A DNA stretch of 64,000 bases from Candidatus Tayloriibacteriota bacterium (GCA_003151615.1 PLXZ01000001.1:352124-416123), one strand, 5' to 3'. Counted from the stretch's first letter, positions 39,187 to 50,096 are shown. Notes: a model not told the origin generated them from the sequence alone. Numbers and translations are program-made.

Positions 39187-39258
39187 AGCGGGGTAGAGCA
39201 ACGGTAGCTCGTCAGGCTCATAACCTGAAGATTGCCGGTTCGATTCCGGCCTCCGCAA
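39187..39258 (+). tRNA. tRNA-Met (anticodon CAU; elongator-type, or Ile2 if lysidinylated)
   Basis: Hand-folded cloverleaf with D-stem GAGC/GCTC, anticodon arm TCAGG-CTCATAA-CCTGA and T-arm GCCGG-TTCGATT-CCGGC. The acceptor AGCGGGG/CTCCGCA has an A1:A72 mismatch and no encoded CCA. Confidence 0.55.
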
Positions 39259-39359
39259 CAAGCAAGGTAGATGCGAGTGCCTCATATTCTGAGTCATTTT
39301 CATCGGAAAACATCGAACACAAAAGCAGAGAAAAATCTCTGCTTTTGTGTTACTGGAAG

Positions 39360-40682
39360 TTATTCCGCGATCAGTTTCTTGTCTTTGAGCAGTATCTTGC
39401 TTTTGATGCACGACAGCACTTCTCGCTTTTCTAAAAGAGTCCCGTGCTGAAGCATGTACTTGGCGAATATCTTGATGCTTATGTCCCTATGCTTTTTTGA
39501 TTGCGGCAAATCCTGCTTGAGTACTCCAGTTTGAAAGAGTGCGTATCGCGCGATTTCTTTTTCTAGTTTTTGTCGTAGCTCTGATTTATCCAAACTCATT
39601 GTGTCGATGATAGGCAACATCTCGGCGATCAATATCGTTTCGCTCACAGACTCATTCGGGCAGTCTCGGTTTTTTACTTTGGTACAGCGATAATAGATAT
39701 GCGCGTTCGAGCCGCCGTTTTTGAGTTCCTTGATTTTCTCTTCAGCTGTTATACCCGAATCGCAGTATGCACAGTGGAGCATTCTCGTGAAAGCGAACTC
39801 ACGGCCGTAGGCCTTTTTCTTCTCGACTTTCAGTTTTTCCTGCACTATATCGAAAACCTCTTTTGTAATGATCGGCGTATGTTTGCCAGTATACCAATCG
39901 CCGCTACCCTCGGGATATTCGAAAACACCATAGTAGAAGGACATACGCAATATGCGGTATATATTGCCGAGCGTTACGTACTTGCCGTATCTGTTTTTAA
40001 ATTCCGTTTCCTTGAGCCATTTGCATATCTTTCTGCCGGAGTATCCCTCGTATGCCACCTTGTGAAATATATCCCTTACGATCGGCGCTCTTTGGTGATC
40101 GACAATGGCTTGGCATTTTTCATCCTTATTCTTGCTGTTCAAATACCCAGTCGGTGCCATCGATGGTCTCAGCCCCATCGCCGCACGCGTTCGCAGTCCG
40201 CGTTTGACGTTGATGACCTTGTTATCGTTTTCAAGCTTAGCCTGTGATCCCAGAATCATGAGAAGAAATTTCTCATTTGGATTGTTCGTGAACTTCTGTC
40301 CGCCGTAGGTGCGTATCTCGACCAGTAACTTTTGATCCATGAGGTCAACGATCCTACCGAGGTCGCCCGCGTTGCGACTGATACGATCGGGTGCCCACGT
40401 CAGTATGCCGTTGTACTTGCCCTGCTTCAGCTCCGCAATAATCTCATTGAACACCGGCCGTTGGCCCGCTTCCTTAGCTGAGTGCGATTCCTGTTTTCTG
40501 TCTACTATTTCCAGTCCTTCATTGACCGCCAGTTTCTCCATCTCGGCGATCTGGCTGTCGATTGAAAGTATCTGCTTGTCCTCCTGCTCTGTACTTTTGC
40601 GTGCGTAAAGGCAGTATTTCACCTTTACGGGGACTGCTACTTTGGCCGCAGTTCCCAGTGGCGCTTCTGTTTTATATGTCAT
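39360..40682 (-). CDS. Large serine recombinase (phage-type integrase)
   Basis: 440 aa with an N-terminal resolvase catalytic domain (YARKST...SIDSQ) and a recombinase-domain/zinc-ribbon C-terminal extension. Lies adjacent to tRNA-Met. Confidence 0.7.
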   Translation of the reverse strand: MTYKTEAPLGTAAKVAVPVKVKYCLYARKSTEQEDKQILSIDSQIAEMEKLAVNEGLEIVDRKQESHSAKEAGQRPVFNEIIAELKQGKYNGILTWAPDRISRNAGDLGRIVDLMDQKLLVEIRTYGGQKFTNNPNEKFLLMILGSQAKLENDNKVINVKRGLRTRAAMGLRPSMAPTGYLNSKNKDEKCQAIVDHQRAPIVRDIFHKVAYEGYSGRKICKWLKETEFKNRYGKYVTLGNIYRILRMSFYYGVFEYPEGSGDWYTGKHTPIITKEVFDIVQEKLKVEKKKAYGREFAFTRMLHCAYCDSGITAEEKIKELKNGGSNAHIYYRCTKVKNRDCPNESVSETILIAEMLPIIDTMSLDKSELRQKLEKEIARYALFQTGVLKQDLPQSKKHRDISIKIFAKYMLQHGTLLEKREVLSCIKSKILLKDKKLIAE

Positions 40683-40722
40683 ACATCTTAATCAATGACG
40701 CAGACCCGCCGAGGAGTCTAGG

Positions 40723-40769
40723 CTCCCTAGTTGGTAAACTGTAGGTAACTTATCTTTCAAAAAAGGCCT
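40723..40769. repeat. ~47-bp imperfect direct repeat, copy 1 (core CTCCCTAGTTGGTAAACTGTAGGTAACT)
   Basis: Matches 41576-41622 with 26 of 28 identities in the core and identical spacing to a conserved AAAAAG(G/A)CCT tail. Confidence 0.7.
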
Positions 40770-40848
40770 GAAAATGCTAATATTTTAGGCACGTTATGGC
40801 TAACAAAAATCTCACAAACGAGAGGGTATTCAGAGTAGAAAACGACTT

Positions 40849-41544
40849 ATGAAACTACTATATAAATATATTGTATATACTCTTATTTTAATAGTTTCTT
40901 TTTTGAGTGCATGGTTATTACCTCTAGAGGCAACTATGAAAGGAATAGTTGCGTTCCCTGGAGTGGGTGTCTTATTTCTCGCTCTGTATCAATTATTACG
41001 AGATGGATGGCAACATGATAGAAATTTAAATCTTCAGTATAGACAACAAGATTTTATACTTTCTACTTCGTCACACATAGCAGATGTTGTTTACGACAGG
41101 CACGTCCTTTTCTGTGAGGAATATATTGATAGAGTTCAGAAAGGTAGGCAGGAATTATTAAGAGATGGTGCTTCACCAAAAGCATTGAGTATTGGTGGTG
41201 ATCTTGTAAGGATACGGCAAAAACATTCCGCATGGTTAACAGATAAAATTGAGAACAGCTTGAAACCCTTTGAGCAGGCCTTGATAAAAATTGGTGCTGA
41301 TGAACAACATCTCAGAACGACAGCGACGCAAGACATTGATGATAGAAAGAGAGATATTATCGATAAATTATATAGATCATTTGGGTTGGTATTGGGTCAC
41401 GAGAAACCCATGAATGACATGGAGGCAGAAATTCATATAGATAAAATAATTGATAAAATTAGAGACATTCTCGGGATAAAAACTATGACTGAGTTAAGAT
41501 CAGAGGCGATTTGTGTGACTCTTAATAGATTAAAAGGTCATTGA
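40849..41544 (+). CDS. Hypothetical membrane protein (2 N-terminal TM helices plus a cytoplasmic domain)
   Basis: 231 aa, very AT-rich, flanked by the two direct-repeat copies. Confidence 0.45.
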   Translation: MKLLYKYIVYTLILIVSFLSAWLLPLEATMKGIVAFPGVGVLFLALYQLLRDGWQHDRNLNLQYRQQDFILSTSSHIADVVYDRHVLFCEEYIDRVQKGRQELLRDGASPKALSIGGDLVRIRQKHSAWLTDKIENSLKPFEQALIKIGADEQHLRTTATQDIDDRKRDIIDKLYRSFGLVLGHEKPMNDMEAEIHIDKIIDKIRDILGIKTMTELRSEAICVTLNRLKGH

Positions 41545-41575
41545 TTAGTGTTTATGGAATTTCGCTTGAATAGTC

Positions 41576-41622
41576 TCCCTAGTTGGTAAGCTGTTGGTAA
41601 CTCGACTACACAAAAAGACCTA
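41576..41622. repeat. ~47-bp imperfect direct repeat, copy 2
   Basis: See copy 1. Confidence 0.7.
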
Positions 41623-41736
41623 TCTAAGCTAGGGTACATGGACTGATAGCCAGAATTGAGCTATCATAACCAGTGACAATTTAATATGTTTTTATGGCCT
41701 AACCCTCTTGGTTTTCCAGGAGATATGGTCAAAATT

Positions 41737-41880
41737 CCCGCTAGAGATCAAAAGACTCCTCGTCAGAGTCACTCTAGCGGGTCGTAACTGGAAACGGTTA
41801 CGGGCAGGGCCGAAAGGTTCTGTCGCGATGGCGAGGAGCCTTTTGCTACTCGGTTCTCACCATTCTTAAACCCCGCTAGA
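41737..41880 (+). promoter_or_regulatory. Structured 5' leader with three copies of CCCGCTAGAG/CTCTAGCGGG allowing alternative pairings; the last copy abuts the start codon
   Basis: Direct at 41737-41746, reverse complement at 41773-41782, direct at 41871-41880. There is a nested GACTC/GAGTC hairpin, a CGTAAC/GTTACG hairpin (41785-41804) and a GAAA-tetraloop hairpin CAGGGCC-GAAA-GGTTCTG. Confidence 0.4.
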
Positions 41881-41884
41881 GTTT

Positions 41885-42856
41885 ATGAAAAAATATTTTC
41901 TTATATTCGCATTTATTGCGTTGACCCCATCGATCGCATCCGCCGCTTGGTGGAACCCGCTTTCGTGGGGTATTTTTTCTTCAATACTCCAGGATAGCTC
42001 TCCGAAACAGACCGAGGTTATCACCGCCCATCCGACGAACAATCTTATAGCAACTTCAACTGATCAATTTGCCACGACCACTACTCAGGCTAACATTAGT
42101 ATTTCCTCTACAACCAAAACATCACCTGTAGTTAATACGTCCAAGACGGATTCAAAGACTGTTAAATCTGTTGTTAAGAAACCTCAGCAGACTCAGCCTA
42201 CTGGTGATCTTTGTAATGGTACATATTGGAATGCTTGTCCAACGGGGCAAAAGATGATTTGTCCGCAAACTGGAAATGCTTACTGTCAGCTTCCAGTACA
42301 GCAACCACCGATTGTACCGGCTACTACAACGTTGACAACAACACCCATCGCTACGACTACAGTCGATAAAGGCACTCCTTACAAAGGCCAAGACGGTAAT
42401 TGGTATTACCCGAATGCATATGATGCGAATGGTAAAACCTTGCAGGTTATAGTACCTGATCCAAAAGTGATCGTTACTATCAATCCATCGAGTGTTGATT
42501 ATGGTGGTACAGCGACCCTCAGTTGGACAGCTAATGGAGCTACATCATGTACCCTAAATTCATCCCCAGTGCTACTTGCCCCGACAGGTTCACAGACGAC
42601 GGGAACTCTTTCAACCTCAACAACTTACACCGTCTCTTGTACGGATAAGGATGGAACGGCATCTAGTAGTGTTACGGTAAATGTTCCACAATCCTCTATC
42701 AATTACGCCGCCGCCGCGAAAGATTGTTATGTAGGTGGTGGGACATTATATTCTCAATTTCCTTGCCTTGATGAGAGAAATTATGCAGGCATATTGCCAT
42801 CAAACATATTCCCATATAGTTCTTCCCAGTTCGATGGCCTACCACCTCCTTTTTAA
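41885..42856 (+). CDS. Secreted Thr/Cys-rich protein, paralog 1
   Basis: Signal peptide ...PSIASA, then AAWWNPLSWGIFSS, followed by a Thr-rich low-complexity region and a Cys-containing C-terminal domain. Confidence 0.5.
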   Translation: MKKYFLIFAFIALTPSIASAAWWNPLSWGIFSSILQDSSPKQTEVITAHPTNNLIATSTDQFATTTTQANISISSTTKTSPVVNTSKTDSKTVKSVVKKPQQTQPTGDLCNGTYWNACPTGQKMICPQTGNAYCQLPVQQPPIVPATTTLTTTPIATTTVDKGTPYKGQDGNWYYPNAYDANGKTLQVIVPDPKVIVTINPSSVDYGGTATLSWTANGATSCTLNSSPVLLAPTGSQTTGTLSTSTTYTVSCTDKDGTASSSVTVNVPQSSINYAAAAKDCYVGGGTLYSQFPCLDERNYAGILPSNIFPYSSSQFDGLPPPF

Positions 42857-42883
42857 TTCCACACGGAAGGGGTAATTAAATAT

Positions 42884-43810
42884 ATGAATCAAAAAAATAA
42901 AATGAAAAAATATCTTATCGCACCCATAGCTCTAGCTTTCATTCCCTCAATTGCTTTCGCCGCTTGGTGGAACCCGCTTTCGTGGGGTATTTTCTCATCG
43001 CAAAGCTCTCTACCACCTGTACCAATAGCACAATTGGTAAATTCTACAAGTACATCGCAAAATGATTTTTTTATATCGACAACGACGGTCGCCAATGCGT
43101 CCTCAACTGCCGCAGTGGGAAGCACCACAAATCCTTCCGCTATAATTTATAAACATACGGTCAAAAAATATGTTCTGATACCTATTACCGCAGGCTCGTC
43201 TACGCAGATGGAGACTCCGCCAATTGCTACAACATCATTGACATCTACTGCTCCGTCGCCTTGCTTGCCAGACTATAAATATTCGGCAAATCTTGGCTGT
43301 ATTTCTGCCAATCTGCCCACTGGTTACGTTTCAAGTTCTAATGCCAATTCCTCTAATCAGCAGAACGAAATGCAAGCCGAAATAATGGCGAAAAATAACA
43401 TCAGTGCTTCTACAACAAGTCAGTTTAATTATGTAAATGGAGTGATGGTACCTACAGGAGAAAATACTGGGACACCAAACTATGCATCACAAAATCCTTG
43501 CGATTCAGCACCATTATTTAGTTCTTCGCCAAATTGCGTTCCAGCGAGTGCACAACAGCCGCAATACCCTTCCTGTTCAGATAATGATGGTGATCCTTGT
43601 GAACTTCCAGAAGGAAGTAATTCTTGTCCAAACGGATGGCAAATGACTACGTCAATATATGGTAGCACTTGTTCGCCGCAACCAACCAGTGAGGCGTGCC
43701 TATCAGATGTAGAAAAATGGAATGAATGGGATGGAGCTACTAACCAGCAATTACAAGACGAAGGTGAACGAGACTGTAATGGAACTACAGATGAGAATTA
43801 TTTTAATTAA
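42884..43810 (+). CDS. Secreted Ser/Thr/Cys-rich protein, paralog 2
   Basis: Signal peptide ...PSIAFA, then the identical AAWWNPLSWGIFSS. The C-terminus differs from paralog 1. Confidence 0.5.
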   Translation: MNQKNKMKKYLIAPIALAFIPSIAFAAWWNPLSWGIFSSQSSLPPVPIAQLVNSTSTSQNDFFISTTTVANASSTAAVGSTTNPSAIIYKHTVKKYVLIPITAGSSTQMETPPIATTSLTSTAPSPCLPDYKYSANLGCISANLPTGYVSSSNANSSNQQNEMQAEIMAKNNISASTTSQFNYVNGVMVPTGENTGTPNYASQNPCDSAPLFSSSPNCVPASAQQPQYPSCSDNDGDPCELPEGSNSCPNGWQMTTSIYGSTCSPQPTSEACLSDVEKWNEWDGATNQQLQDEGERDCNGTTDENYFN

Positions 43811-44894
43811 AATCATAAAAAAATATTTGATTGTCGGAATCGTCGCCATATTTTTTCCGATCACAGCGTCGGCGTCAACTGTGTCAACTACCGACCAACT
43901 CGAAGGTATTTTCTATATCTCTCCTGCTTACCTGACTGCGGGCATTAACGACCTTCAGACAAATGTGCCGTCGGGGGATATTGTTGCTCCGCAGACATAC
44001 AGTGTTGACTCCAACCTCGAAGCTACCGGCTCAGTCCCTGAACAAATCATGGAAATTACAAAATCGAAAGGCGTTAAAGTCATGCCTCTCATTACGAATG
44101 GCGATAATTTTAGTCAGTCGTTAATGAACGACTTGCTCGCATCGACAACGGCACAGAACAATGTCATTTCGTACCTCATATCCGAAGCGCAGAATAATGG
44201 CTACATCGGTTGGCAATTCGACTTTGAACATATGGAAGCTAGCGACAGCGAACCGTATACTGCTTTCGTGAAGAAAGCCGCCACGGTACTTCATCAGAAC
44301 AATCTCATTCTATCGGTCACAGCGGTGGCACGTACAGACGATGCTACGTCAACTCCATTTTACCAAAATTGGGCGGGCGCATATGACTATGCTCAATTGG
44401 CAAAGTATGCCGACTTCATCAGTTTAATGACTTACGACGATCCGAAAACAATCGGCCCGACCGCTTCAATCCCTTATGATACGAGTGTTCTGAATTATCT
44501 TTCGGATAAAGTACCGACGGATAAAATATCTCTCGGTATTCCGCTCTACTATTACGGCTGGGACATAACGGCGACTTCTAGTCAGATAGACTTGTTTTAC
44601 AACGTTCCATCTTCCGATTTCGGAGAAGTGATCAACTACGGCGGCACATATACCCGATGGCAATATGACCGAGAAAATTATGGTCTCAACGAACTATTTG
44701 ATTCCGGTCTCGGCTCGCCTTACTCGACCTACTATTTAAACGGTCATGAATATCAAATTTGGTACGACGACTCGACAAGCATGCAAATGAAGCTTGACAT
44801 GGCGCGATTGTTCCATTTACGTGGCTTTTCGGCATGGGCTTTGGGACAAGAATTTCCTGACGTGTGGGATGCTTTTGATAAAAATAATAAATAA
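43791..44894 (+). CDS. GH18-like glycoside hydrolase (chitinase/lysin-like), secreted
   Basis: Start chosen at MRIILIKIIKKYLIVGIVAIFFPITASA (signal peptide). GWQFDFEHME resembles the GH18 DxDxE catalytic strand with an incomplete motif. Confidence 0.4.
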   Translation: MRIILIKIIKKYLIVGIVAIFFPITASASTVSTTDQLEGIFYISPAYLTAGINDLQTNVPSGDIVAPQTYSVDSNLEATGSVPEQIMEITKSKGVKVMPLITNGDNFSQSLMNDLLASTTAQNNVISYLISEAQNNGYIGWQFDFEHMEASDSEPYTAFVKKAATVLHQNNLILSVTAVARTDDATSTPFYQNWAGAYDYAQLAKYADFISLMTYDDPKTIGPTASIPYDTSVLNYLSDKVPTDKISLGIPLYYYGWDITATSSQIDLFYNVPSSDFGEVINYGGTYTRWQYDRENYGLNELFDSGLGSPYSTYYLNGHEYQIWYDDSTSMQMKLDMARLFHLRGFSAWALGQEFPDVWDAFDKNNK

Positions 44895-44898
44895 AAAA

Positions 44899-45336
44899 AT
44901 GAAAAAAATAATCGGAAATGTCGAAGATATTTTATCGAGAAATCGGAAGATTCTTGAGTATAGAAAAACACATATGCAAAAGGAAACCGCTAAAAAATTT
45001 GTTCGTTCGGCTGAAAGAATTAGGCAAATAGAACATTTAAAAAAATGTAATATTCACGATATTCAATATTATGACAAGTGTCCTTCTTGCATAAATTCCG
45101 TAGAGTTAAAAAAATATGCAAAGTTTGTTGAAAATTTGGATCAGAAATCTTTGATGGAGGAAGTCTCTAAAGAAGCTGAGAACAGAAGAAGGGATTTTAT
45201 TTCTACACAAAAGAGAGTTTGTCTTATAAAAATCTTGAAAGAAAATTACGATTTCCCTTTAAAAGAAATCGCGAATTATCTCAAAAGAGATAGAACAACA
45301 GTACGTTATCTTGATAATATGTATTTAAAAAAATAA
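44899..45336 (+). CDS. Small HTH DNA-binding protein
   Basis: 145 aa starting at MKKIIGNV. C-terminal LKEIANYLKRDRTTVRYL is a classic helix-turn-helix. Confidence 0.45.
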   Translation: MKKIIGNVEDILSRNRKILEYRKTHMQKETAKKFVRSAERIRQIEHLKKCNIHDIQYYDKCPSCINSVELKKYAKFVENLDQKSLMEEVSKEAENRRRDFISTQKRVCLIKILKENYDFPLKEIANYLKRDRTTVRYLDNMYLKK

Positions 45337-45418
45337 CTTAAAAACAAAAAAAATATAGGGTTCGGGAGGTTTCTCTAGGGCATAGGATTTAAAAGATTTA
45401 ATTTGAATATATAAAATA

Positions 45419-46552
45419 ATGAAAAACAACATAATAAATACAGTATGTCCTAAATGTAAAAAATCAATATCAATATCAATTGATGAAGTTTTGACAGATC
45501 AAATTCAGGCAAAATTAAGTAAGGATTTTGAGGAGAAAGAAAAAAAGCTAAAGGACTTTCTTGAAAAATCAAACCAAATAATTCTTGCGAAAGAGGAGGA
45601 AAAACTTAAAAAGAAAATCAAAGAAGACGCAGAGAAAGAGGTTAAATCAGAAAAACGTTTTCTAGAGGAACAATTAAAGGAAAAAGATGAAAAGTTAACA
45701 ATGGCAAATAAAGAAAAAAAAGCTTTTGAACTTGAATCAGCTAGAAAAATGGATAAGATTCAAGAAGATGCTTCAAGAAAGGCTACCGAGGCTCAGCAGT
45801 CAATCATTGATCAATTGAATAAGAAACTTTCTGACGCTACAAAAGCGAAAGATGAGTTGGCAAGAAAATTGGAGCAAGGTTCTCAGCAGACACAGGGAGA
45901 AGTACAAGAAATTATCCTAGAGAAACTTCTCGGGAATGAATTTAAATTTGATGATATTTCACCTGTGCCAAAGGGTATAAATGGTGCTGACATAATACAG
46001 ACTGTTAAAAATAGGCATGGTATGGAGTGCGGAAAGATAATATGGGAATCAAAAAAGACAAAGTCGTGGACAAATGGGTGGATACAGAAACTAAAAGATG
46101 ATCAAAGGTCTATTAAGGCCGAAATGGCAGTTATTGTATCTTCAGTACTTCCTGAAGGGGTTGAGGGTGGAACCCTACGAGAGGGTGTGTGGATCTGTGA
46201 TATGAGATCGGTATTATCGATTGCTACGGCATTACGGTACACACTTGAGACAATTTCGAATCAAAAGAGAATGCTTGCTGGGAAAGATGACAAAAAAGAA
46301 ATTCTCTATAATTATCTTACAGGAACAGCTTTTACACACAAAATTCAGGCAATTGTGGAGACTTTCCTGCGCATGGAGAGTGATCTCGTCAAAGAGAAAG
46401 GCATGCAGGAAAAGATATGGGCTGAACGAGAGAAGGGTATTAAAAAAATCAAGTCAAATATAACTGCGATTGTTGTTGATCTCCATGAAAATGTTCCGTT
46501 GCAAAAGATTGATTTTCTAGAATTGCCAGATTCTTCTTCACGGGGAAAATAG
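45419..46552 (+). CDS. Zinc-ribbon / long coiled-coil protein with a C-terminal globular domain (DUF2130-like)
   Basis: 377 aa. N-terminal CPKCKK, then a ~150-aa KE-rich coiled coil, then a C-terminal domain (GEVQEIILEKLL...GADIIQ) reminiscent of a PD-(D/E)xK-like core. Family assignment is from memory. Confidence 0.45.
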   Translation: MKNNIINTVCPKCKKSISISIDEVLTDQIQAKLSKDFEEKEKKLKDFLEKSNQIILAKEEEKLKKKIKEDAEKEVKSEKRFLEEQLKEKDEKLTMANKEKKAFELESARKMDKIQEDASRKATEAQQSIIDQLNKKLSDATKAKDELARKLEQGSQQTQGEVQEIILEKLLGNEFKFDDISPVPKGINGADIIQTVKNRHGMECGKIIWESKKTKSWTNGWIQKLKDDQRSIKAEMAVIVSSVLPEGVEGGTLREGVWICDMRSVLSIATALRYTLETISNQKRMLAGKDDKKEILYNYLTGTAFTHKIQAIVETFLRMESDLVKEKGMQEKIWAEREKGIKKIKSNITAIVVDLHENVPLQKIDFLELPDSSSRGK

Positions 46553-46562
46553 TGGAACAAAA

Positions 46563-47024
46563 ATGAAAAAGAATAAAGACAAAGAAATAACCATCGCCGA
46601 TCTGATTCCGGATATGAAAAAAGATATCCGCGAAATACAAAAGGAGCAATCCGAAGTAAAATTTTATGACAGGCTTCTTGATGAAAATATCGATGATTTG
46701 TCCAAACTAATAGGCAGAAAACTCACCCGGGACGAAAAGAAGAAAGTTTTTCGGATCGTCGATCGCTATAGCCCGAAATACAGCGACGGAGACATCATAG
46801 ATTATTTCCCGTTCGATTTGGCTTGGAGGATATATAAAATCTTGAAGAAGAATGATTTCGACGAAGGGTGCCTTAAGAGCCGGTATTTGAGCGAGGATGT
46901 GTTTGAAATAGCAAAAGAGAATGATCTGAGCTTGGCGGAGGCCGAAGAGCTCCATGAGTTTATTGAAGAGAACGATTACAAGGACGCTTTTAAAGCCTAT
47001 GAGGCTTGGAAGTCGGAGCACTGA
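46563..47024 (+). CDS. Hypothetical acidic protein
   Basis: 153 aa with no recognisable motif. Confidence 0.35.
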   Translation: MKKNKDKEITIADLIPDMKKDIREIQKEQSEVKFYDRLLDENIDDLSKLIGRKLTRDEKKKVFRIVDRYSPKYSDGDIIDYFPFDLAWRIYKILKKNDFDEGCLKSRYLSEDVFEIAKENDLSLAEAEELHEFIEENDYKDAFKAYEAWKSEH

Positions 47025-47070
47025 GAAAAGACTCGAGTAAAGGTTACCCGATCTGAAGATGATATGCCTA

Positions 47071-48357
47071 TTATTCCTTCTCTTGATTTTTAGTCGGTGT
47101 CACCGGCCTGTTCCGGTAACTTTCTTTTGCTTCCGTCCACACCCTCATTATTTCTCCACTAGGCGGATGTTCTCGTCTCGATTCTGCAGGAATACGCCTC
47201 TGTTCGTCTGTCCATTTGCGGTACCATTCGGCGAGATGGGTTAGCATATATCGGTATTCCGCGATACTCGATATCATCTCCGATTCAATTTCCACATTGC
47301 CGTAATATCGCCGGTACGCCGCATCGTCTTCGACCGTAAAGCGTTTTCGCGGCTTGACGATGGGTACGGATATGACGAAAGGTTTCATGTGATCGACGAG
47401 GGGTTTCTGATACTCCACGTCTCTCTCTGGTCCGTAGCGGGAACGCAGTTCGTCAGATATTTCCACGTGACTGTCATCGTTATCCGTGCCGTTTTTGTTC
47501 CAGCCGAGAATTTTCAGCAAAAATTCCCGAGTCCAGACCCCGCGCGTGAAGTGACTTTTCATTTCTCTGATGCTGTCGAGATTGGGGAACCGTCCCGGCC
47601 ACATGATGCGCCGCTCGTCATCCAGGAGCGGGTACGTTCGGAATATGCCGGAAAGGTTTCCTTTGCGGATCTTTTCTTTCAGCCGCATGAGAAGCGAGTC
47701 GGGGCAGACAAGGTTACCGAGAACGATGATACGCGTTCCCTTGCTTCCGAGCGGCAATATCTCGCTCGTGAGTCTCTGCCATGCGTTGTTGCGGTTGACT
47801 TCGTCCTTGGCCGTCGAAGTGTCCTCGATGTCGTCGCAGACAATGAGGTCGGGACGGATTGTCCCATATTTGAGTCCGCGGATGCTCTGTTCGAGAGATA
47901 CCGACTGGATTTTCGATTCATGGTATTCCAATTCAAGCGACATCTTTTTCCACTCGGCCTCATGGTCGGTAAACGGCCCGAAGTCTGATCGCAGAAGAGC
48001 GTTTGAGATAAGCTCGTCCCTGATGCCCACGAAATGACTTTTGGCCTGATCCTGCGTCTGGCTTACGACGACCACGAACTTTTTCTGCGGCTTGCCCAAG
48101 ATCGACCAAAGGACATTGCCCATGTTCATGATGGTCGATTTACCCGACTCCCGAAAGGCCATGACGGCGATAAACTGACGCGATGAATCTTTCAGGATAT
48201 GACCCATCTCCCGATGAAACGGAGCAAGCGGATACGAAAGATGATGCCGCAGATATATGAGGCAGAACCATAACGGATCCTCGTATGCCAATTTTCTTCT
48301 CAAGACCGGATCATCGAGCGCCTGTTTCAATTTTTTGATATCGAATTCATTCGGCAT
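47071..48357 (-). CDS. Phage terminase large subunit-like ATPase
   Basis: Walker A AFRESGKST and Walker B LIVCDDIED. Preceded in transcription order by a small HTH TerS-like gene with overlapping stop/start. Confidence 0.5.
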   Translation of the reverse strand: MPNEFDIKKLKQALDDPVLRRKLAYEDPLWFCLIYLRHHLSYPLAPFHREMGHILKDSSRQFIAVMAFRESGKSTIMNMGNVLWSILGKPQKKFVVVVSQTQDQAKSHFVGIRDELISNALLRSDFGPFTDHEAEWKKMSLELEYHESKIQSVSLEQSIRGLKYGTIRPDLIVCDDIEDTSTAKDEVNRNNAWQRLTSEILPLGSKGTRIIVLGNLVCPDSLLMRLKEKIRKGNLSGIFRTYPLLDDERRIMWPGRFPNLDSIREMKSHFTRGVWTREFLLKILGWNKNGTDNDDSHVEISDELRSRYGPERDVEYQKPLVDHMKPFVISVPIVKPRKRFTVEDDAAYRRYYGNVEIESEMISSIAEYRYMLTHLAEWYRKWTDEQRRIPAESRREHPPSGEIMRVWTEAKESYRNRPVTPTKNQEKE

Positions 48358-48775
48358 GGTCTGGTGTGACTGATGTTCCTGGCGACGGTTCGAGGAATTC
48401 CTTGAAGAGCTTTTCTTCTTCCGGCGTAAGTTCCGCCGTATTTATGATCGGCTTCCGTACCGACTTGCCGCCGTAGCGCGGGTGGTTGTTCTTGAGCCAC
48501 ATGGCGATGGCAGGCATTTTCTTTTCCTTTATGAGGGTGATCAACTGCGACTCGCTCATATCACTCACGAATTCGATGCCTTGGTTGAGAGCGTCCTCGC
48601 TCTCTTTCCGGAACACCTTGTCATCACGTCGCCAACGGTAGTAGGTGTCCCGGGAGATGCTTGCACGTTTGCAAGCGGCTTCAATGATGGGCAGTTCCTT
48701 CAAGGTGGCGACAAGTTTGACTTTGAAATCGGCCTGACGTTCATCAATCGTTTGGTCGTAGGTGTTTTCAGCCAT
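48347..48775 (-). CDS. Terminase small subunit-like HTH protein
   Basis: 142 aa. ACKRASISRDTYYRWRRD HTH, located immediately upstream of the TerL-like gene. Confidence 0.45.
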   Translation of the reverse strand: MAENTYDQTIDERQADFKVKLVATLKELPIIEAACKRASISRDTYYRWRRDDKVFRKESEDALNQGIEFVSDMSESQLITLIKEKKMPAIAMWLKNNHPRYGGKSVRKPIINTAELTPEEEKLFKEFLEPSPGTSVTPDHAE

Positions 48776-50096
48776 GGATTTTTTTCGCCTTAAGACCTGT
48801 TAATTTTTCCCATCGCTTCTTGATCACCTCGGCGTACACGGGTGACTTTTCCATGAGGTAACAGCGTCGGTTCATTTTCGTTGAAGCGATCAGTGTCGAT
48901 CCGCTTCCGCCGAAGGGTTCGATGATGAGGTCATTTCGCTTCGTCAATACCTTTATGTACGGAATGAGAAGCTCTAACGGCTTTGTGCCGAAGATAATTT
49001 CCTGTCCCGACGAAGCCTTGTCCGCGGCGGTGTGGCTGATGAAATCCGTCGGGCATATCTTTTTGCCTTTCTCGTAGCTTTCCCAGTGCGGTTTGCCTAA
49101 CGTGGCAAAGAGCGCGTTTTCATATTCGTTTTGGAACAGTTCTTCCTCGGGTTCTATATTGAGAGCGATTTTCCCGCCGGTACCGACGAGAGCTATGTCA
49201 GTCTTGTTGAAGAACTTGTACTTGGCCGAAAATCCTTGCATGCGGTTACCCACATGCCACGTAATTGTGTTACGATACTTCCAGTGTTTCTCGAGTTCAT
49301 TCCAAATAATTCGAAGATTTTTCGGATTCTCGAAAATAATAATGGAGAAGTCAGGTTTCTGCACTTTTGCGACATTCGCCATCCATAACTCCGTGAAGTT
49401 ATCCGGAAGGATGTCGGTCTCGAGGTATCGGCGATCGCGCTTGTTGCCGAAGCCCGTGACGGCATCGCCTTTCTTCTTTTTACCCTTGAGGTAATCGAGT
49501 ATATATGGCGGGTCGGTGAGACACATGTCGGCTTTCACCCCATCCATTAGTTTGAGCGTATCGGCTTCGACAGTGCTGTCACCGCACATGAGGCGCGAGC
49601 CGTTCAGGTCGTACACGTCTCCCTTTTTGATGTCAATGCTATCGATCTTTAGCTTTTTAAGCTCTTTTTCGAGATCAAACTGCTCGGGCGTTTCTTCGAT
49701 TGCGAATATATCGTCGAGGTCTTCCGACGAGAAGCCGATGCCCGACAGGAATGTTTCGTCGAATTTTGCGAGCAGATCCCAGTCAAATTCGCCCGTGTTT
49801 TTGTTGAGGCGAATATTCAACTCCTTTTCCTTTTCGATGTCGGGAATGTTGATATATACGACTGGAACTTCGGTGATGCCGAGCTCCTTGATTACTGACA
49901 AACGAAAATGTCCGCCGATGACGACACCCGCGCGTTCCGGCGCGGAGTTGACGAGAAGCGGATCGACGAGGCCGAAACGCTTGATACTTTCTTTCAACTG
50001 GTCACTGGCTTCCTTGTCCCATTTTCTAGGGTTATACGAAGCCACTTTTAATACGTCGACTGAGACATGCTCAATTTTGATTTTTTCTGAATTCAT
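48768..50096 (-). CDS. ParB-like nuclease domain fused to a DNA methyltransferase (DPPY motif)
   Basis: N-terminal ParB/Srx fold (VVIGGHFRLSV) and a C-terminal amino-methyltransferase with CLTDPPY and FGGSGST motifs. Confidence 0.6.
   Translation of the reverse strand: MNSEKIKIEHVSVDVLKVASYNPRKWDKEASDQLKESIKRFGLVDPLLVNSAPERAGVVIGGHFRLSVIKELGITEVPVVYINIPDIEKEKELNIRLNKNTGEFDWDLLAKFDETFLSGIGFSSEDLDDIFAIEETPEQFDLEKELKKLKIDSIDIKKGDVYDLNGSRLMCGDSTVEADTLKLMDGVKADMCLTDPPYILDYLKGKKKKGDAVTGFGNKRDRRYLETDILPDNFTELWMANVAKVQKPDFSIIIFENPKNLRIIWNELEKHWKYRNTITWHVGNRMQGFSAKYKFFNKTDIALVGTGGKIALNIEPEEELFQNEYENALFATLGKPHWESYEKGKKICPTDFISHTAADKASSGQEIIFGTKPLELLIPYIKVLTKRNDLIIEPFGGSGSTLIASTKMNRRCYLMEKSPVYAEVIKKRWEKLTGLKAKKIHG

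What the first reader, a model, noticed from the sequence alone, without database searches (positions are those of the whole stretch)
40723..41622. Membrane-protein gene flanked by ~47-bp direct repeats immediately next to the serine recombinase
Copy 1 (40723-40769) lies in the divergent region between the integrase start and the 40849 gene. Copy 2 (41576-41622) lies just after that gene. The core CTCCCTAGTTGGTAA(A/G)CTGT(A/T)GGTAACT is 26 of 28 identical, and both copies share a spaced AAAAAG(G/A)CCT tail. Directly repeated sites flanking a single gene beside a serine recombinase are the geometry of a resolvable or excisable cassette (developmental excision, or an on/off switch by deletion). 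Alternatively, the repeats are a duplicated operator or promoter for an island-encoded regulator, for example the HTH protein at 44899. The enclosed protein (2 TM plus a cytoplasmic domain) resembles small abortive-infection or superinfection-exclusion effectors.
Basis: seen in the sequence. Interest (0 to 1): 0.55.

Follow-up and report, generated by a model that had tools for sequence, protein, structure and literature searches.

The report
Duplicated integrase control site around inserted gene
The two repeats are real: they are two copies of a short conserved DNA site that related phage-like elements of tiny "CPR" bacteria carry once, just upstream of their integrase gene, and here the copies bracket a single membrane-protein gene that was inserted into that control region.

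Summary
Observation confirmed. The repeat is 51 nt at 78% identity (about 64 nt with one indel), the 28-nt core is 26/28 identical, and there are two copies in 64 kb against none expected.

The core is not private to this locus. Read on the minus strand it is AGTTACCWACAGYTTACCAAC, two half-sites 11 nt apart. About 14 IMG/VR relatives of this large serine recombinase (LSR) carry this site, mostly 65-70 nt upstream of the LSR start codon, followed by conserved CTRGACT and TTGCGTCATT boxes.

In several relatives the site lies in a roughly 170-nt spacer between a divergent LOOT RNA gene and the LSR. The window equals such a spacer (L107) plus an 852-bp insertion: the 231-aa gene and a second copy of the block.

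The layout [site]-[one gene antisense to the LSR]-[site]-LSR recurs with unrelated cargo (KAP NTPase in L106, a 183-aa membrane protein in L120). L116 carries a HepT-like gene there but keeps only the distal site. L119 and L120 are an empty/occupied pair.

The site has no dyad symmetry and no hairpin. The integration junction appears to lie on the tRNA side of the LSR. It is therefore best read as a duplicated operator block at a cargo-insertion hot spot. A recombinase-driven excisable cassette is not excluded but is unsupported.

The parts
39187..39259 (+). tRNA-Met (CAT), convergent with the 3' end of the recombinase gene. It marks the likely integration side of the element.
   Evidence: ARAGORN; Rfam tRNA 63.2 bits. 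Relatives have a convergent tRNA (Gln, Ser, Asp, Trp) downstream of the LSR.
39316..39351 (-). 16-bp perfect hairpin followed by a T-run. Terminator-like, just after the recombinase stop.
   Evidence: (I2)
39360..40682 (-). Large serine recombinase (LSR), 440 aa.
   Evidence: Pfam Resolvase 78 bits, Recombinase 59 bits, Zn_ribbon_recom 24 bits. PHROG 95 integrase, 1e-59. 43-62% identical relatives in about 50 IMG/VR contigs.
40683..40729 (-). Proximal control region of the LSR gene: CTAGACT box (40715-40721) and TGCGTCATT box (40694-40702). Present only next to copy 1.
   Evidence: Conserved as CTRGACT ... TTGCGTCATT ... ATG upstream of LSR relatives.
40719..40782 (.). Repeat copy 1: the 51-nt repeat plus a weaker tail.
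40730..40750 (-). Tandem half-site element of copy 1, AGTTACCTACAGTTTACCAAC. It starts 68 nt upstream of the LSR ATG.
   Evidence: 28.6 bits against a PWM built only from IMG/VR LSR-upstream sites; the next best hit in the window scores 14.1.
40776..40784 (+). Extended -10-like TGCTAATAT, 65 nt before the 231-aa gene. Candidate promoter of the cargo gene (read from sequence, not tested).
   Evidence: Sequence. The simple scan did not list it.
40849..41544 (+). Cargo gene: 231-aa protein with two N-terminal TM helices and a helical bundle. No known family.
   Evidence: 72 homologues at 37-71% identity, all from Patescibacteria-type MAGs. AlphaFold pLDDT 85, all-helical. No Foldseek match with E below 0.6. 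No Pfam, PADLOC or PHROG hit.
41571..41634 (.). Repeat copy 2.
41582..41602 (-). Tandem half-site element of copy 2, AGTTACCAACAGCTTACCAAC.
   Evidence: 29.2 bits, PWM built without the window.
41603..41695 (+). LOOT-side part of the spacer, with the conserved CTAAGCTA box and promoter-like TGGACT-17-TATCAT (41639-41667).
   Evidence: Conserved with L106, L107 and L116. Promoter-like match.
41696..41824 (+). LOOT RNA gene, divergent from the LSR.
   Evidence: RF03000, 82.4 bits. Same family beside LSR relatives in 8 IMG/VR loci.
41885..47024 (+). Older cargo block antisense to the LSR: two secreted-protein paralogues, GH18, a sigma-70 region-4-like protein, DUF2130 and a 153-aa ORF.
   Evidence: GC 0.30-0.43 against about 0.50 in the flanks.
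47071..50096 (-). Phage backbone genes co-oriented with the LSR: TerL homologue (47071-48357, ATPase part only), TerS-like HTH (48347-48775) and ParB-N6/N4 methyltransferase (48768-50096).
   Evidence: Same order (MTase, HTH, TerL, site, LSR) in IMG/VR loci.

Best explanation
The repeats are two copies of a conserved cis-acting block of a phage-derived integrative element. The core of the block is two 10-11-bp half-sites in tandem (AGTTAYCWAC, twice) on the strand of the large serine recombinase (LSR) gene.

Related elements carry the block once. It begins about 65 nt upstream of the LSR start codon and is followed by promoter-like boxes. In several relatives it lies in the middle of a roughly 170-nt spacer between the LSR gene and a divergently transcribed LOOT RNA gene.

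In this window an 852-bp segment was inserted into that spacer: the 231-aa membrane-protein gene plus a second copy of the block. The LSR keeps copy 1 with its own promoter-like boxes. LOOT keeps copy 2 with its own upstream region. The cargo gene points the same way as LOOT and sits behind the duplicated LOOT-side part of the block.

Shown: the block is conserved, the window is an interrupted spacer, and the same layout recurs with unrelated cargo genes.

Inferred: the block is a protein-binding operator of the LSR/LOOT control region, kept at both positions by selection. The spot is an accessory-gene ('moron') insertion hot spot, not a pair of LSR crossover sites.
For: 1. A PWM was built from nine LSR-upstream sites of IMG/VR relatives, with the window excluded. 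It scores copy 2 at 29.2 bits and copy 1 at 28.6 bits, both on the minus strand. The next best hit in 64 kb scores 14.1.
2. In about 14 of 51 LSR loci the site lies at -62 to -101 from the LSR ATG, mostly -65 to -70, followed by CTRGACT and TTGCGTCATT boxes.
3. I joined copy 2's LOOT side to copy 1's LSR side. The composite aligns colinearly with the uninterrupted LOOT-site-LSR spacer of L107: 169 nt against 174 nt, 93/169 identical, with the conserved boxes in register. L135 has the same uninterrupted layout.
4. The layout distal site, one gene antisense to the LSR, proximal site, LSR recurs with unrelated cargo. L106 carries an 899-aa KAP NTPase. L120 carries a 183-aa membrane protein. L116 carries a 329-aa HepT-like protein with only the distal site.
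5. L119 and L120 are two LSR modules of one viral contig. L119's single site has the left flank of L120's distal copy and the right flank of L120's proximal copy.
6. In L120 the 21-mers are 100% identical while the flanks are far weaker. In the window and in L120 weak similarity extends beyond the site (p about 0.01-0.035). This fits a longer duplication in which only the site is held constant.
7. As single strands the repeat regions are unstructured (z-scores -1.6 and +0.8).
8. tRNA genes lie convergent with the 3' end of the LSR in the window and in 11 relatives, so the chromosomal junction is on that side.
Against: - No binding protein is identified, and no transcription start is mapped.
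- The promoter-like boxes are poor sigma-70 matches.
- A purely regulatory role does not explain how the duplication arose, nor why in L120 exactly the 21-mer is identical, which is also what crossover within a recombination site would leave.
- In L106 the two sites are different sequence variants, which suggests joining of DNA from two sources.
- In the window the homology between the copies ends at the centre of a 14-bp near-palindrome (GGAGTC|TAGGCTCC, 40713-40726). That would suit a crossover point.
- Only three clear double-site cases were found among about 50 loci.
Confidence: 0.55

Rival explanations
1. Cassette capture and excision. The tandem site is a site-specific recombination site, analogous to attI/attC. 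Single-gene cargo circles, each carrying one site copy, are integrated at it next to the recombinase gene, by the LSR itself or by another enzyme, and can be excised again by recombination between the two direct copies.
For: - Recurrent site-cargo-site-LSR layout with unrelated cargo genes.
- Empty/occupied pairs.
- In L120 exactly the 21-mer is duplicated at 100% identity.
- Cargo is divergent from the recombinase, as in integrons.
- In the window, homology ends at the centre of a near-palindrome with a central TA.
Against: - The site is made of tandem direct half-sites with no dyad symmetry, unlike every characterised serine-recombinase site (established knowledge of the family).
- It forms no hairpin.
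- The site is present once, at a fixed distance from the LSR ATG, in about 11 loci without flanked cargo.
- The chromosomal attachment site of these elements appears to be on the tRNA side.
- Weak similarity extends beyond the site into the flanks of both copies, which a minimal-site cassette would not show.
- No circular or deleted form was observed.
Confidence: 0.2
2. Neutral scar of module shuffling. The second copy is a by-product of illegitimate or short-homology recombination between two related phages that both carried the conserved spacer. It has no function of its own.
For: - L106 combines two different site variants. The distal one is of the LOOT-linked type and the proximal one is of the TerL-linked type.
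- Several viral contigs carry two LSR modules that could recombine (L099/L104, L119/L120, L121/L122, L141/L142).
- The 5' flank of L120's proximal copy resembles the flank of the distal copy (0/1000 shuffles reach the score).
Against: The core is much better conserved than its flanks in both the window (26/28 against about 50% beyond) and L120 (21/21). A decaying scar would not show this. Copy 2 scores as high as bona fide single sites.
Confidence: 0.15
3. Transcription roadblock or packaging signal. The asymmetric site, which in uninterrupted elements starts 2-44 nt (mostly 2-18) after the TerL stop codon, could be a repressor-bound 'stoperator'-type block against read-through from the late operon into the LSR gene. 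Alternatively it could be a small-terminase binding site. It would be duplicated so that both the cargo and the LSR are shielded.
For: - The site follows the TerL or TerS-like stop codon by 2-44 nt in L072, L093, L095, L101, L117 and L124, and there is no terminator between.
- Its orientation is always that of TerL and LSR transcription.
- A TerS-like HTH protein is encoded nearby in the window, L072 and L120.
Against: Only one or two copies occur per element rather than many spread over the genome. The fixed spacing to the LSR promoter-like boxes argues for local control of the LSR. Nothing links the site to DNA ends.
Confidence: 0.1

Closest known systems
Phage morons and accessory-gene hot spots next to integrase or att (for example the P2/P4 hot spots that carry defence genes)
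   Same: A single gene lies between conserved backbone genes (TerL and integrase), opposite to the backbone's direction. A candidate own promoter is seen in the window and an own terminator in L120. The gene is absent from close relatives. Different cargo occupies the same spot, including defence-type proteins (KAP NTPase, HepT-like) and small membrane proteins.
   Different: Here the insertion point lies inside the integrase's upstream control region. In three elements the conserved 21-nt site is present on both sides of the cargo. I know of no such feature described for moron hot spots (own knowledge; not checked in the literature).
res sites of Tn3/gamma-delta resolvase
   Same: A site sits immediately upstream of a serine recombinase gene, in a divergent promoter region. 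Two direct copies flanking a segment would be a deletion substrate. In Tn3, res doubles as the operator of tnpR and tnpA.
   Different: The enzyme here is a 440-aa large serine recombinase, not a roughly 185-aa resolvase. The site is about 21 nt of tandem direct half-sites, not about 120 bp of three dyad-symmetric subsites.
Integron platform (intI, attI, cassette, attC)
   Same: The recombinase gene is divergent from an adjacent insertion point that holds single-gene cargo of varied function, bounded by a repeated site.
   Different: The recombinase is a serine, not a tyrosine, enzyme. The sites do not fold into attC-like hairpins. At most one flanked cargo gene was seen per element. No evidence of recombination at the site.
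Tandem direct-repeat binding sites of phage regulators and directionality factors (P2 Cox boxes, lambda or L5 Xis sites) and mycobacteriophage stoperators
   Same: Short asymmetric sites phased by about one helical turn, next to the integrase gene or in intergenic gaps, oriented with transcription (own knowledge of these systems).
   Different: No Cox- or Xis-like protein has been tied to the site. Only one or two copies occur per element. The attachment site does not appear to be adjacent.
Tycheposons of Prochlorococcus (10.1101/2020.12.28.424599)
   Same: Integrative elements that sit at tRNA genes and build cargo-rich islands. I saw only this preprint's title and the start of its abstract in a literature search and did not read it; that some tycheposons use large serine recombinases is my own recollection.
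   Different: Different hosts and different proteins. The duplicated control site described here is not a partial tRNA repeat.

Membership tests
LOOT RNA (Rfam RF03000) | Covariance-model score at or above the curated gathering score (46.4 bits) over the full model | tested here: met
   41696-41824 (+), 82.4 bits, model positions 1-121 of 121.
Large serine recombinase (phage-type serine integrase) | N-terminal resolvase catalytic domain, then a recombinase domain and a zinc-ribbon domain | tested here: met
   PF00239 78.3 bits. PF07508 58.9 bits. PF13408 24.4 bits, just under its 25.3 cut-off. PHROG 95 integrase 1e-59.
LSR attL/attR pair flanking an excisable element | Each site has imperfect dyad symmetry around a central dinucleotide; attL and attR share only half-sites | tested here: not met
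   The copies align in direct register at 26/28. The core is two tandem direct half-sites, and only the outer AGTT...AACT is symmetric (sequence).
LSR attL/attR pair flanking an excisable element | The recombinase gene lies inside the element bounded by the two sites | tested here: not met
   The LSR (39360-40682) lies outside the 40719-41634 interval.
LSR attL/attR pair flanking an excisable element | Recombination between the sites is catalysed by the LSR | not testable with these tools
   Needs an in vitro or in vivo assay, or junction reads.
Tn3-type res/resolvase system | Small resolvase (about 185 aa) with a C-terminal HTH | tested here: not met
   440 aa with Recombinase and zinc-ribbon domains.
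Tn3-type res/resolvase system | res of about 120 bp with three dyad-symmetric subsites | tested here: not met
   The conserved core is 21 nt of tandem direct repeats.
Integron gene cassette | attC site that folds into an imperfect hairpin as single-stranded DNA | tested here: not met
   As ssDNA, copy 1 folds at -10.4 kcal/mol (z -1.57) and copy 2 at -4.5 kcal/mol (z +0.80). Neither has a hairpin across the repeat.
Integron gene cassette | Tyrosine integrase IntI next to attI | tested here: not met
   The adjacent enzyme is a serine recombinase.
Phage moron / accessory-gene hot spot | The gene is absent at the same position in related elements, whose backbone is otherwise colinear | tested here: met
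   L107 and L135 have an uninterrupted LOOT-site-LSR spacer, and the window composite aligns with L107. L119 against L120 is a second case.
Phage moron / accessory-gene hot spot | Different, unrelated cargo genes occupy the same position in different elements | tested here: met
   A 231-aa 2-TM protein (window), a KAP NTPase (L106), a HepT-like protein (L116) and a 183-aa membrane protein (L120). There is no similarity between the window and L120 cargo. Antisense genes lie between TerL and the LSR in about 20 of 51 loci.
Phage moron / accessory-gene hot spot | Own promoter and terminator | tested here: inconclusive
   An extended -10-like TGCTAATAT lies before the window gene (sequence). A hairpin terminator follows the L120 cargo. 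No terminator was seen after the window gene.
Operator of the LSR/LOOT control region | Conserved sequence at a conserved distance from the regulated gene across relatives | tested here: met
   The site lies at -62 to -101 from the ATG, mostly -65 to -70, in about 14 loci.
Operator of the LSR/LOOT control region | A specific DNA-binding protein occupies the site and changes transcription | not testable with these tools
   Candidates only: the 142-aa HTH (48347-48775), the sigma-70 region-4-like protein (44794-45336) and the LSR itself.

The most novel reading that the evidence does not exclude
The 21-nt tandem site is a genuine cargo-capture site. It would be a serine-recombinase-linked, integron-like platform in phages of Patescibacteria (CPR), in which single-gene cassettes (defence genes, membrane proteins) are inserted and removed next to the integrase gene, possibly under control of the neighbouring LOOT RNA.
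Probability: 0.12. Interest if true: 0.8.

Novelty: new variant of a known kind. Interest (0 to 1): 0.5.

Why it matters
- **A concrete cis element.** The work pins down a conserved 21-nt site in the control region of a widespread clade of serine integrases from phages of Patescibacteria. These hosts are uncultured, and essentially nothing is known about lysogeny control in them.
- **A recurrent landing pad.** The same spot repeatedly receives accessory genes, including defence-type genes. That helps in finding cargo in CPR prophages.
- **A testable context for LOOT.** The LOOT RNA is an orphan Rfam family known, to my recollection, only from metagenomes. Here it gets a reproducible genomic context: it is divergently transcribed from a phage integrase gene across a shared spacer of about 170 nt. 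This makes its function experimentally approachable, for example as an immunity or integrase-control RNA.
- **A possible second capture platform.** If the site proved to be recombinogenic, it would be a second, serine-recombinase-based way of building gene-cassette platforms.

Tried and rejected
1. **attC-like or terminator-like structure.** Folding eight repeat regions as ssDNA gave no significant structure.
2. **Origin from the neighbouring tRNA.** Gapped local alignment of the window repeats, both strands, to tRNA-Met and its flank was no better than shuffles. By contrast, L027's upstream copy and a 19-nt stretch in L008 are displaced tRNA-Gln 3' ends. Those belong to a different story (see Noticed in passing).
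3. **Scan of IMG/VR for the core TTGGTAANCTGTNGGTAAC.** It gave 18 hits. Most lie in a shared conserved, coding-looking context, and none shares the window's flanks. The scan is uninformative.
4. **Are the repeats a feature of the 231-aa gene family?** Flanks of about 60 family loci were compared. Most have no flanking repeat. Close relatives have a different roughly 30-nt element after the stop codon (consensus GTTCCAACTTCGTACCAAAC). I could not establish its relation to the LSR site: 5 of 12 instances exceed the 95th percentile of a null, but only one lies within 5 edits.
5. **Function of the 231-aa protein.** Pfam, PADLOC and PHROGs gave no hit. The AlphaFold model is confident (pLDDT 85), but Foldseek against the PDB found only generic helical bundles with E above 0.6.
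6. **A coding reading of the family's roughly 30-nt element** (the element of item 4, not the window repeat). It shows apparent 3-nt periodicity, but its frame relative to the preceding stop differs between loci (reading).
7. **A third site copy after the TerL-like stop (about 47030-47070).** None found.
8. **Literature on LOOT.** Only two papers in the held library mention it. Neither gives genomic context, and the supplement of the discovery paper is not held.

Full report
**1. The observation**

The repeat is real. The repeat finder reports 40719-40769 and 41571-41621: 51 nt, 78% identical, 852 nt apart. The 28-nt core occurs exactly twice in the window (40723-40750 and 41575-41602). None was found in 100 dinucleotide-preserving shuffles, even allowing three mismatches. 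With a single-base indel the similarity continues to about 40782 and 41634.

Copy 1 lies between the start of a minus-strand recombinase gene (39360-40682) and the start of a plus-strand 231-aa gene (40849-41544). Copy 2 begins 26 nt after that gene's stop.

**2. The neighbourhood**

- The recombinase is a large serine recombinase (LSR): Resolvase, Recombinase and zinc-ribbon domains, and PHROG integrase at 1e-59.
- A tRNA-Met (39187-39259) is convergent with its 3' end.
- A LOOT RNA (Rfam RF03000, 82.4 bits against a gathering score of 46.4) sits at 41696-41824, about 75 nt after copy 2.
- From 41885 to 47024 there is a plus-strand block of accessory-looking genes with low GC.
- It is followed by minus-strand phage backbone genes. 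These are a TerL homologue retaining only the ATPase part (40% identity to the L101 terminase), a TerS-like HTH protein and a ParB-methyltransferase.
- The source is a Patescibacteria (Paceibacterota/Minisyncoccia-type) MAG contig.

The region 39260 to about 50100 therefore looks like a decayed prophage or phage-derived integrative element.

**3. The enclosed gene**

The 231-aa protein has two N-terminal TM helices and a helical bundle (AlphaFold pLDDT 85). It has no informative structural neighbour and no Pfam, PADLOC or PHROG match.

It belongs to a conserved family: 72 hits at 37-71% identity. The family sits among very different neighbouring genes. Strikingly often it lies 0-2 kb downstream of a tRNA-Gln.

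Most family loci have no flanking repeat. The repeat is therefore not a property of the gene family.

**4. What the repeat core is**

IMG/VR holds relatives of the window LSR at 43-62% identity. Upstream of their start codons there is a conserved arrangement:

- a tandem element AGTTAYCWAC-NN-TTTAYCWAC, two half-sites 11 nt apart;
- then a CTRGACT box;
- then TTGCGTCATT;
- then the ATG.

The window core, read on the minus strand, is this element. A position weight matrix built only from nine IMG/VR sites scores copy 2 at 29.2 bits and copy 1 at 28.6 bits. The next best position in the whole window scores 14.1.

In about 14 loci the element lies at -62 to -101 from the LSR ATG, mostly -65 to -70. 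Copy 1 sits at exactly that position (-68) and keeps the downstream boxes (CTAGACT at 40715-40721, TGCGTCATT at 40694-40702). Copy 2 lacks them.

**5. The LOOT link and the uninterrupted ("empty") configuration**

LOOT RNA genes lie beside LSR relatives in eight IMG/VR loci: L072, L102, L104, L105, L106, L107, L116 and L135. None occurs in 20 more distant loci.

In L107 and L135 the layout is LOOT (antisense to the LSR), about 70-100 nt, the tandem site, then the LSR. The LOOT 5' end is 174 nt from the LSR ATG in L107 and about 160 nt in L135. The stretch between LOOT and the site is also conserved, including a CTAAGCTA box, between the window's copy 2 side and L106, L107 and L116.

I joined copy 2's LOOT side to copy 1's LSR side at the repeat. 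The composite is 169 nt and aligns colinearly with L107's 174-nt spacer: 93/169 identical, with all boxes in register.

The window is therefore an L107-type spacer interrupted by an 852-bp insertion. The insertion consists of the 231-aa gene plus one extra copy of the 51-64-nt block.

**6. Recurrence**

The same architecture occurs with unrelated cargo.

- **L106:** LOOT, distal site (703), an 899-aa KAP-family NTPase antisense to the LSR, proximal site (3370), LSR.
- **L120:** two identical 21-mers 688 nt apart around a 183-aa membrane protein and a hairpin terminator.
- **L116:** LOOT, site, a 329-aa HepT-like gene, LSR. The proximal copy is lost.
- **L119**, a second LSR module in the same viral contig as L120, has a single site. 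Its left flank matches L120's distal copy and its right flank matches L120's proximal copy. This is an empty/occupied pair.

More generally, antisense genes lie between TerL and the LSR in about 20 of 51 loci. The TerL-LSR junction is an accessory-gene hot spot.

**7. How it most likely works**

Shown: the conserved block, the interrupted spacer, and recurrent cargo at the same point.

Inferred: the tandem site is a protein-binding operator in the divergent LSR/LOOT control region. Four things support this inference.

- Its spacing to the LSR start and to the promoter-like boxes is nearly fixed.
- Half-sites one helical turn apart are typical of regulator, Xis or Cox-type binding (own knowledge).
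- It is unstructured.
- In the duplicated cases the 21-mer is held far better than its flanks: 26/28 in the window and 21/21 in L120. Weak similarity continues beyond the site (p about 0.01-0.035). This suggests a longer duplication in which only the site stays under constraint.

After the insertion, the LSR and the LOOT RNA each retain a copy. The cargo gene sits behind the duplicated LOOT-side part, where an extended -10-like TGCTAATAT is found at 40776-40784.

**8. Why not LSR crossover sites**

- Serine recombinase sites are dyad-symmetric around a central dinucleotide, and attL and attR share only half-sites. Here the copies align directly, and the core is a tandem direct repeat.
- The LSR gene lies outside the bracketed interval.
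- The element-chromosome junction appears to be on the other side of the LSR. A tRNA (Met, Gln, Ser, Asp or Trp) is convergent with the LSR 3' end in the window and in 11 relatives, usually near the end of the viral contig.

Three observations keep the cassette reading alive at roughly 20%:

- the exact 21-nt duplication in L120;
- the heterologous site variants in L106;
- the homology between the window copies ends at the centre of a 14-bp near-palindrome (GGAGTC|TAGGCTCC, 40713-40726).

No deletion, circle or inversion product could be looked for with these tools.

**9. Comparison with known systems**

The closest match in behaviour is a phage moron or accessory-gene hot spot next to the integrase. 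The unusual twist is that the landing point lies inside the integrase's control region and the conserved site ends up on both sides of the cargo.

It resembles Tn3 res (a site upstream of a serine recombinase gene that doubles as operator) and the integron platform (a divergent recombinase gene beside a cargo insertion point). It fails the defining tests of both (see the membership table).

I rate it a new variant of a known kind, of moderate interest. The reproducible LOOT-integrase linkage is a useful by-product.

**10. A caveat on a side trail**

In tRNA-Gln-linked islands, the close relatives of the 231-aa gene are followed, 2-40 nt after the stop codon, by a different conserved element of about 30 nt (GTTCCAACTTCGTACCAAAC...). 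In L002 there are four copies of it separating single ORFs.

Like the LSR site, it has 11-nt-phased half-sites. One instance (L008, 7070) matches LSR sites closely. Overall, though, the relation is not statistically established, and I leave it open.

Noticed in passing
window 41696-41824; L072 1385-1512; L102, L104, L105, L106, L107, L116, L135: LOOT RNA (RF03000) is reproducibly linked to this clade of phage serine-integrase genes. In six of the eight IMG/VR loci (and in the window) it lies upstream of the LSR on the opposite strand; in three (L107, L135, L104) the two face each other across a 160-175-nt spacer with no gene between, while cargo or backbone genes intervene in L106, L116, L072 and the window. 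In L102 and L105 it lies just downstream of the LSR on the same strand. This gives an orphan RNA family a genomic context.
   Followed up: partly
L002, L005, L008, L012, L013, L014, L026, L027, L033, L045, L046: The 231-aa protein family sits 0-2 kb (6 kb in L026) downstream of a tRNA-Gln on the same strand in at least 11 independent loci. In L012, L013 and L033 it follows the tRNA directly. In others, small inserts lie between. L008 has an exact 19-nt duplicate of the tRNA-Gln 3' end just before the gene, and L027 has a decayed one (2/300 shuffles reach its score). The gene looks like the standing right-hand neighbour of a tRNA-Gln integration hot spot.
   Followed up: partly
L002 5413, 5951, 6732, 7230; L005 5942, 6717; L008 4653, 7070; L026 6922; L027 5347; L028 6179; L071 about 1709: A conserved, unstructured element of about 30 nt (GTTCCAACTTCGTACCAAAC plus CCAGCAAA) lies 2-40 nt after stop codons. 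It is co-oriented with the genes. In L002 it forms an array of four copies separating single small ORFs. Its function is unknown and its relation to the LSR site is unproven.
   Followed up: partly
L026 3-74 and 14-1525: A second, distantly related LSR (503 aa, 34% identical to the window LSR) lies convergent with a tRNA-Gln, and its called ORF overlaps the tRNA gene. The family gene lies 4.7 kb further on, behind an island with HTH, DUF2726 and AAA_15/AAA_21 ATPase genes.
   Followed up: no
window 41885-41982 and 42902-42999: Two adjacent genes (323 and 308 aa) share a 98-nt repeat at 76% identity. It covers their signal-peptide region and an identical AAWWNPLSWGIFS motif. They are paralogous secreted proteins within the cargo block.
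   Followed up: no
window 40713-40726: A 14-bp near-palindrome, GGAGTC TA GGCTCC. Its centre coincides with the point where the similarity between the two repeat copies stops.
   Followed up: partly
window 40680-40699 and 41537-41556: A 20-nt inverted match (80%) links the LSR start-codon region (GTCATTGATTAAGATGTATG on the minus strand) and the stop-codon region of the 231-aa gene (GTCATTGATTAGTGTTTATG). It is probably chance, since similar pairs are common. It does involve the conserved GCGTCATTGATT box.
   Followed up: no
window 47071-48357: The TerL homologue aligns with a full-length terminase only over its N-terminal 280 residues and has no Pfam hit. The element (39260 to about 50100) is therefore probably a decayed prophage rather than a functional phage.
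   Followed up: partly
IMG/VR contigs of L099/L104, L119/L120, L121/L122, L141/L142: Four viral contigs each carry two paralogous LSR modules. The L119 and L120 LSRs are 63% identical, while the short sequences directly flanking the shared site look more conserved (by eye: roughly 85% on the left side, 48 of 50 nt on the LSR side).
   Followed up: partly
window 45001-46000: The lowest GC of the window (0.305), with strong positive GC and AT skew, over the DUF2130 gene and the sigma-70 region-4-like gene.
   Followed up: no
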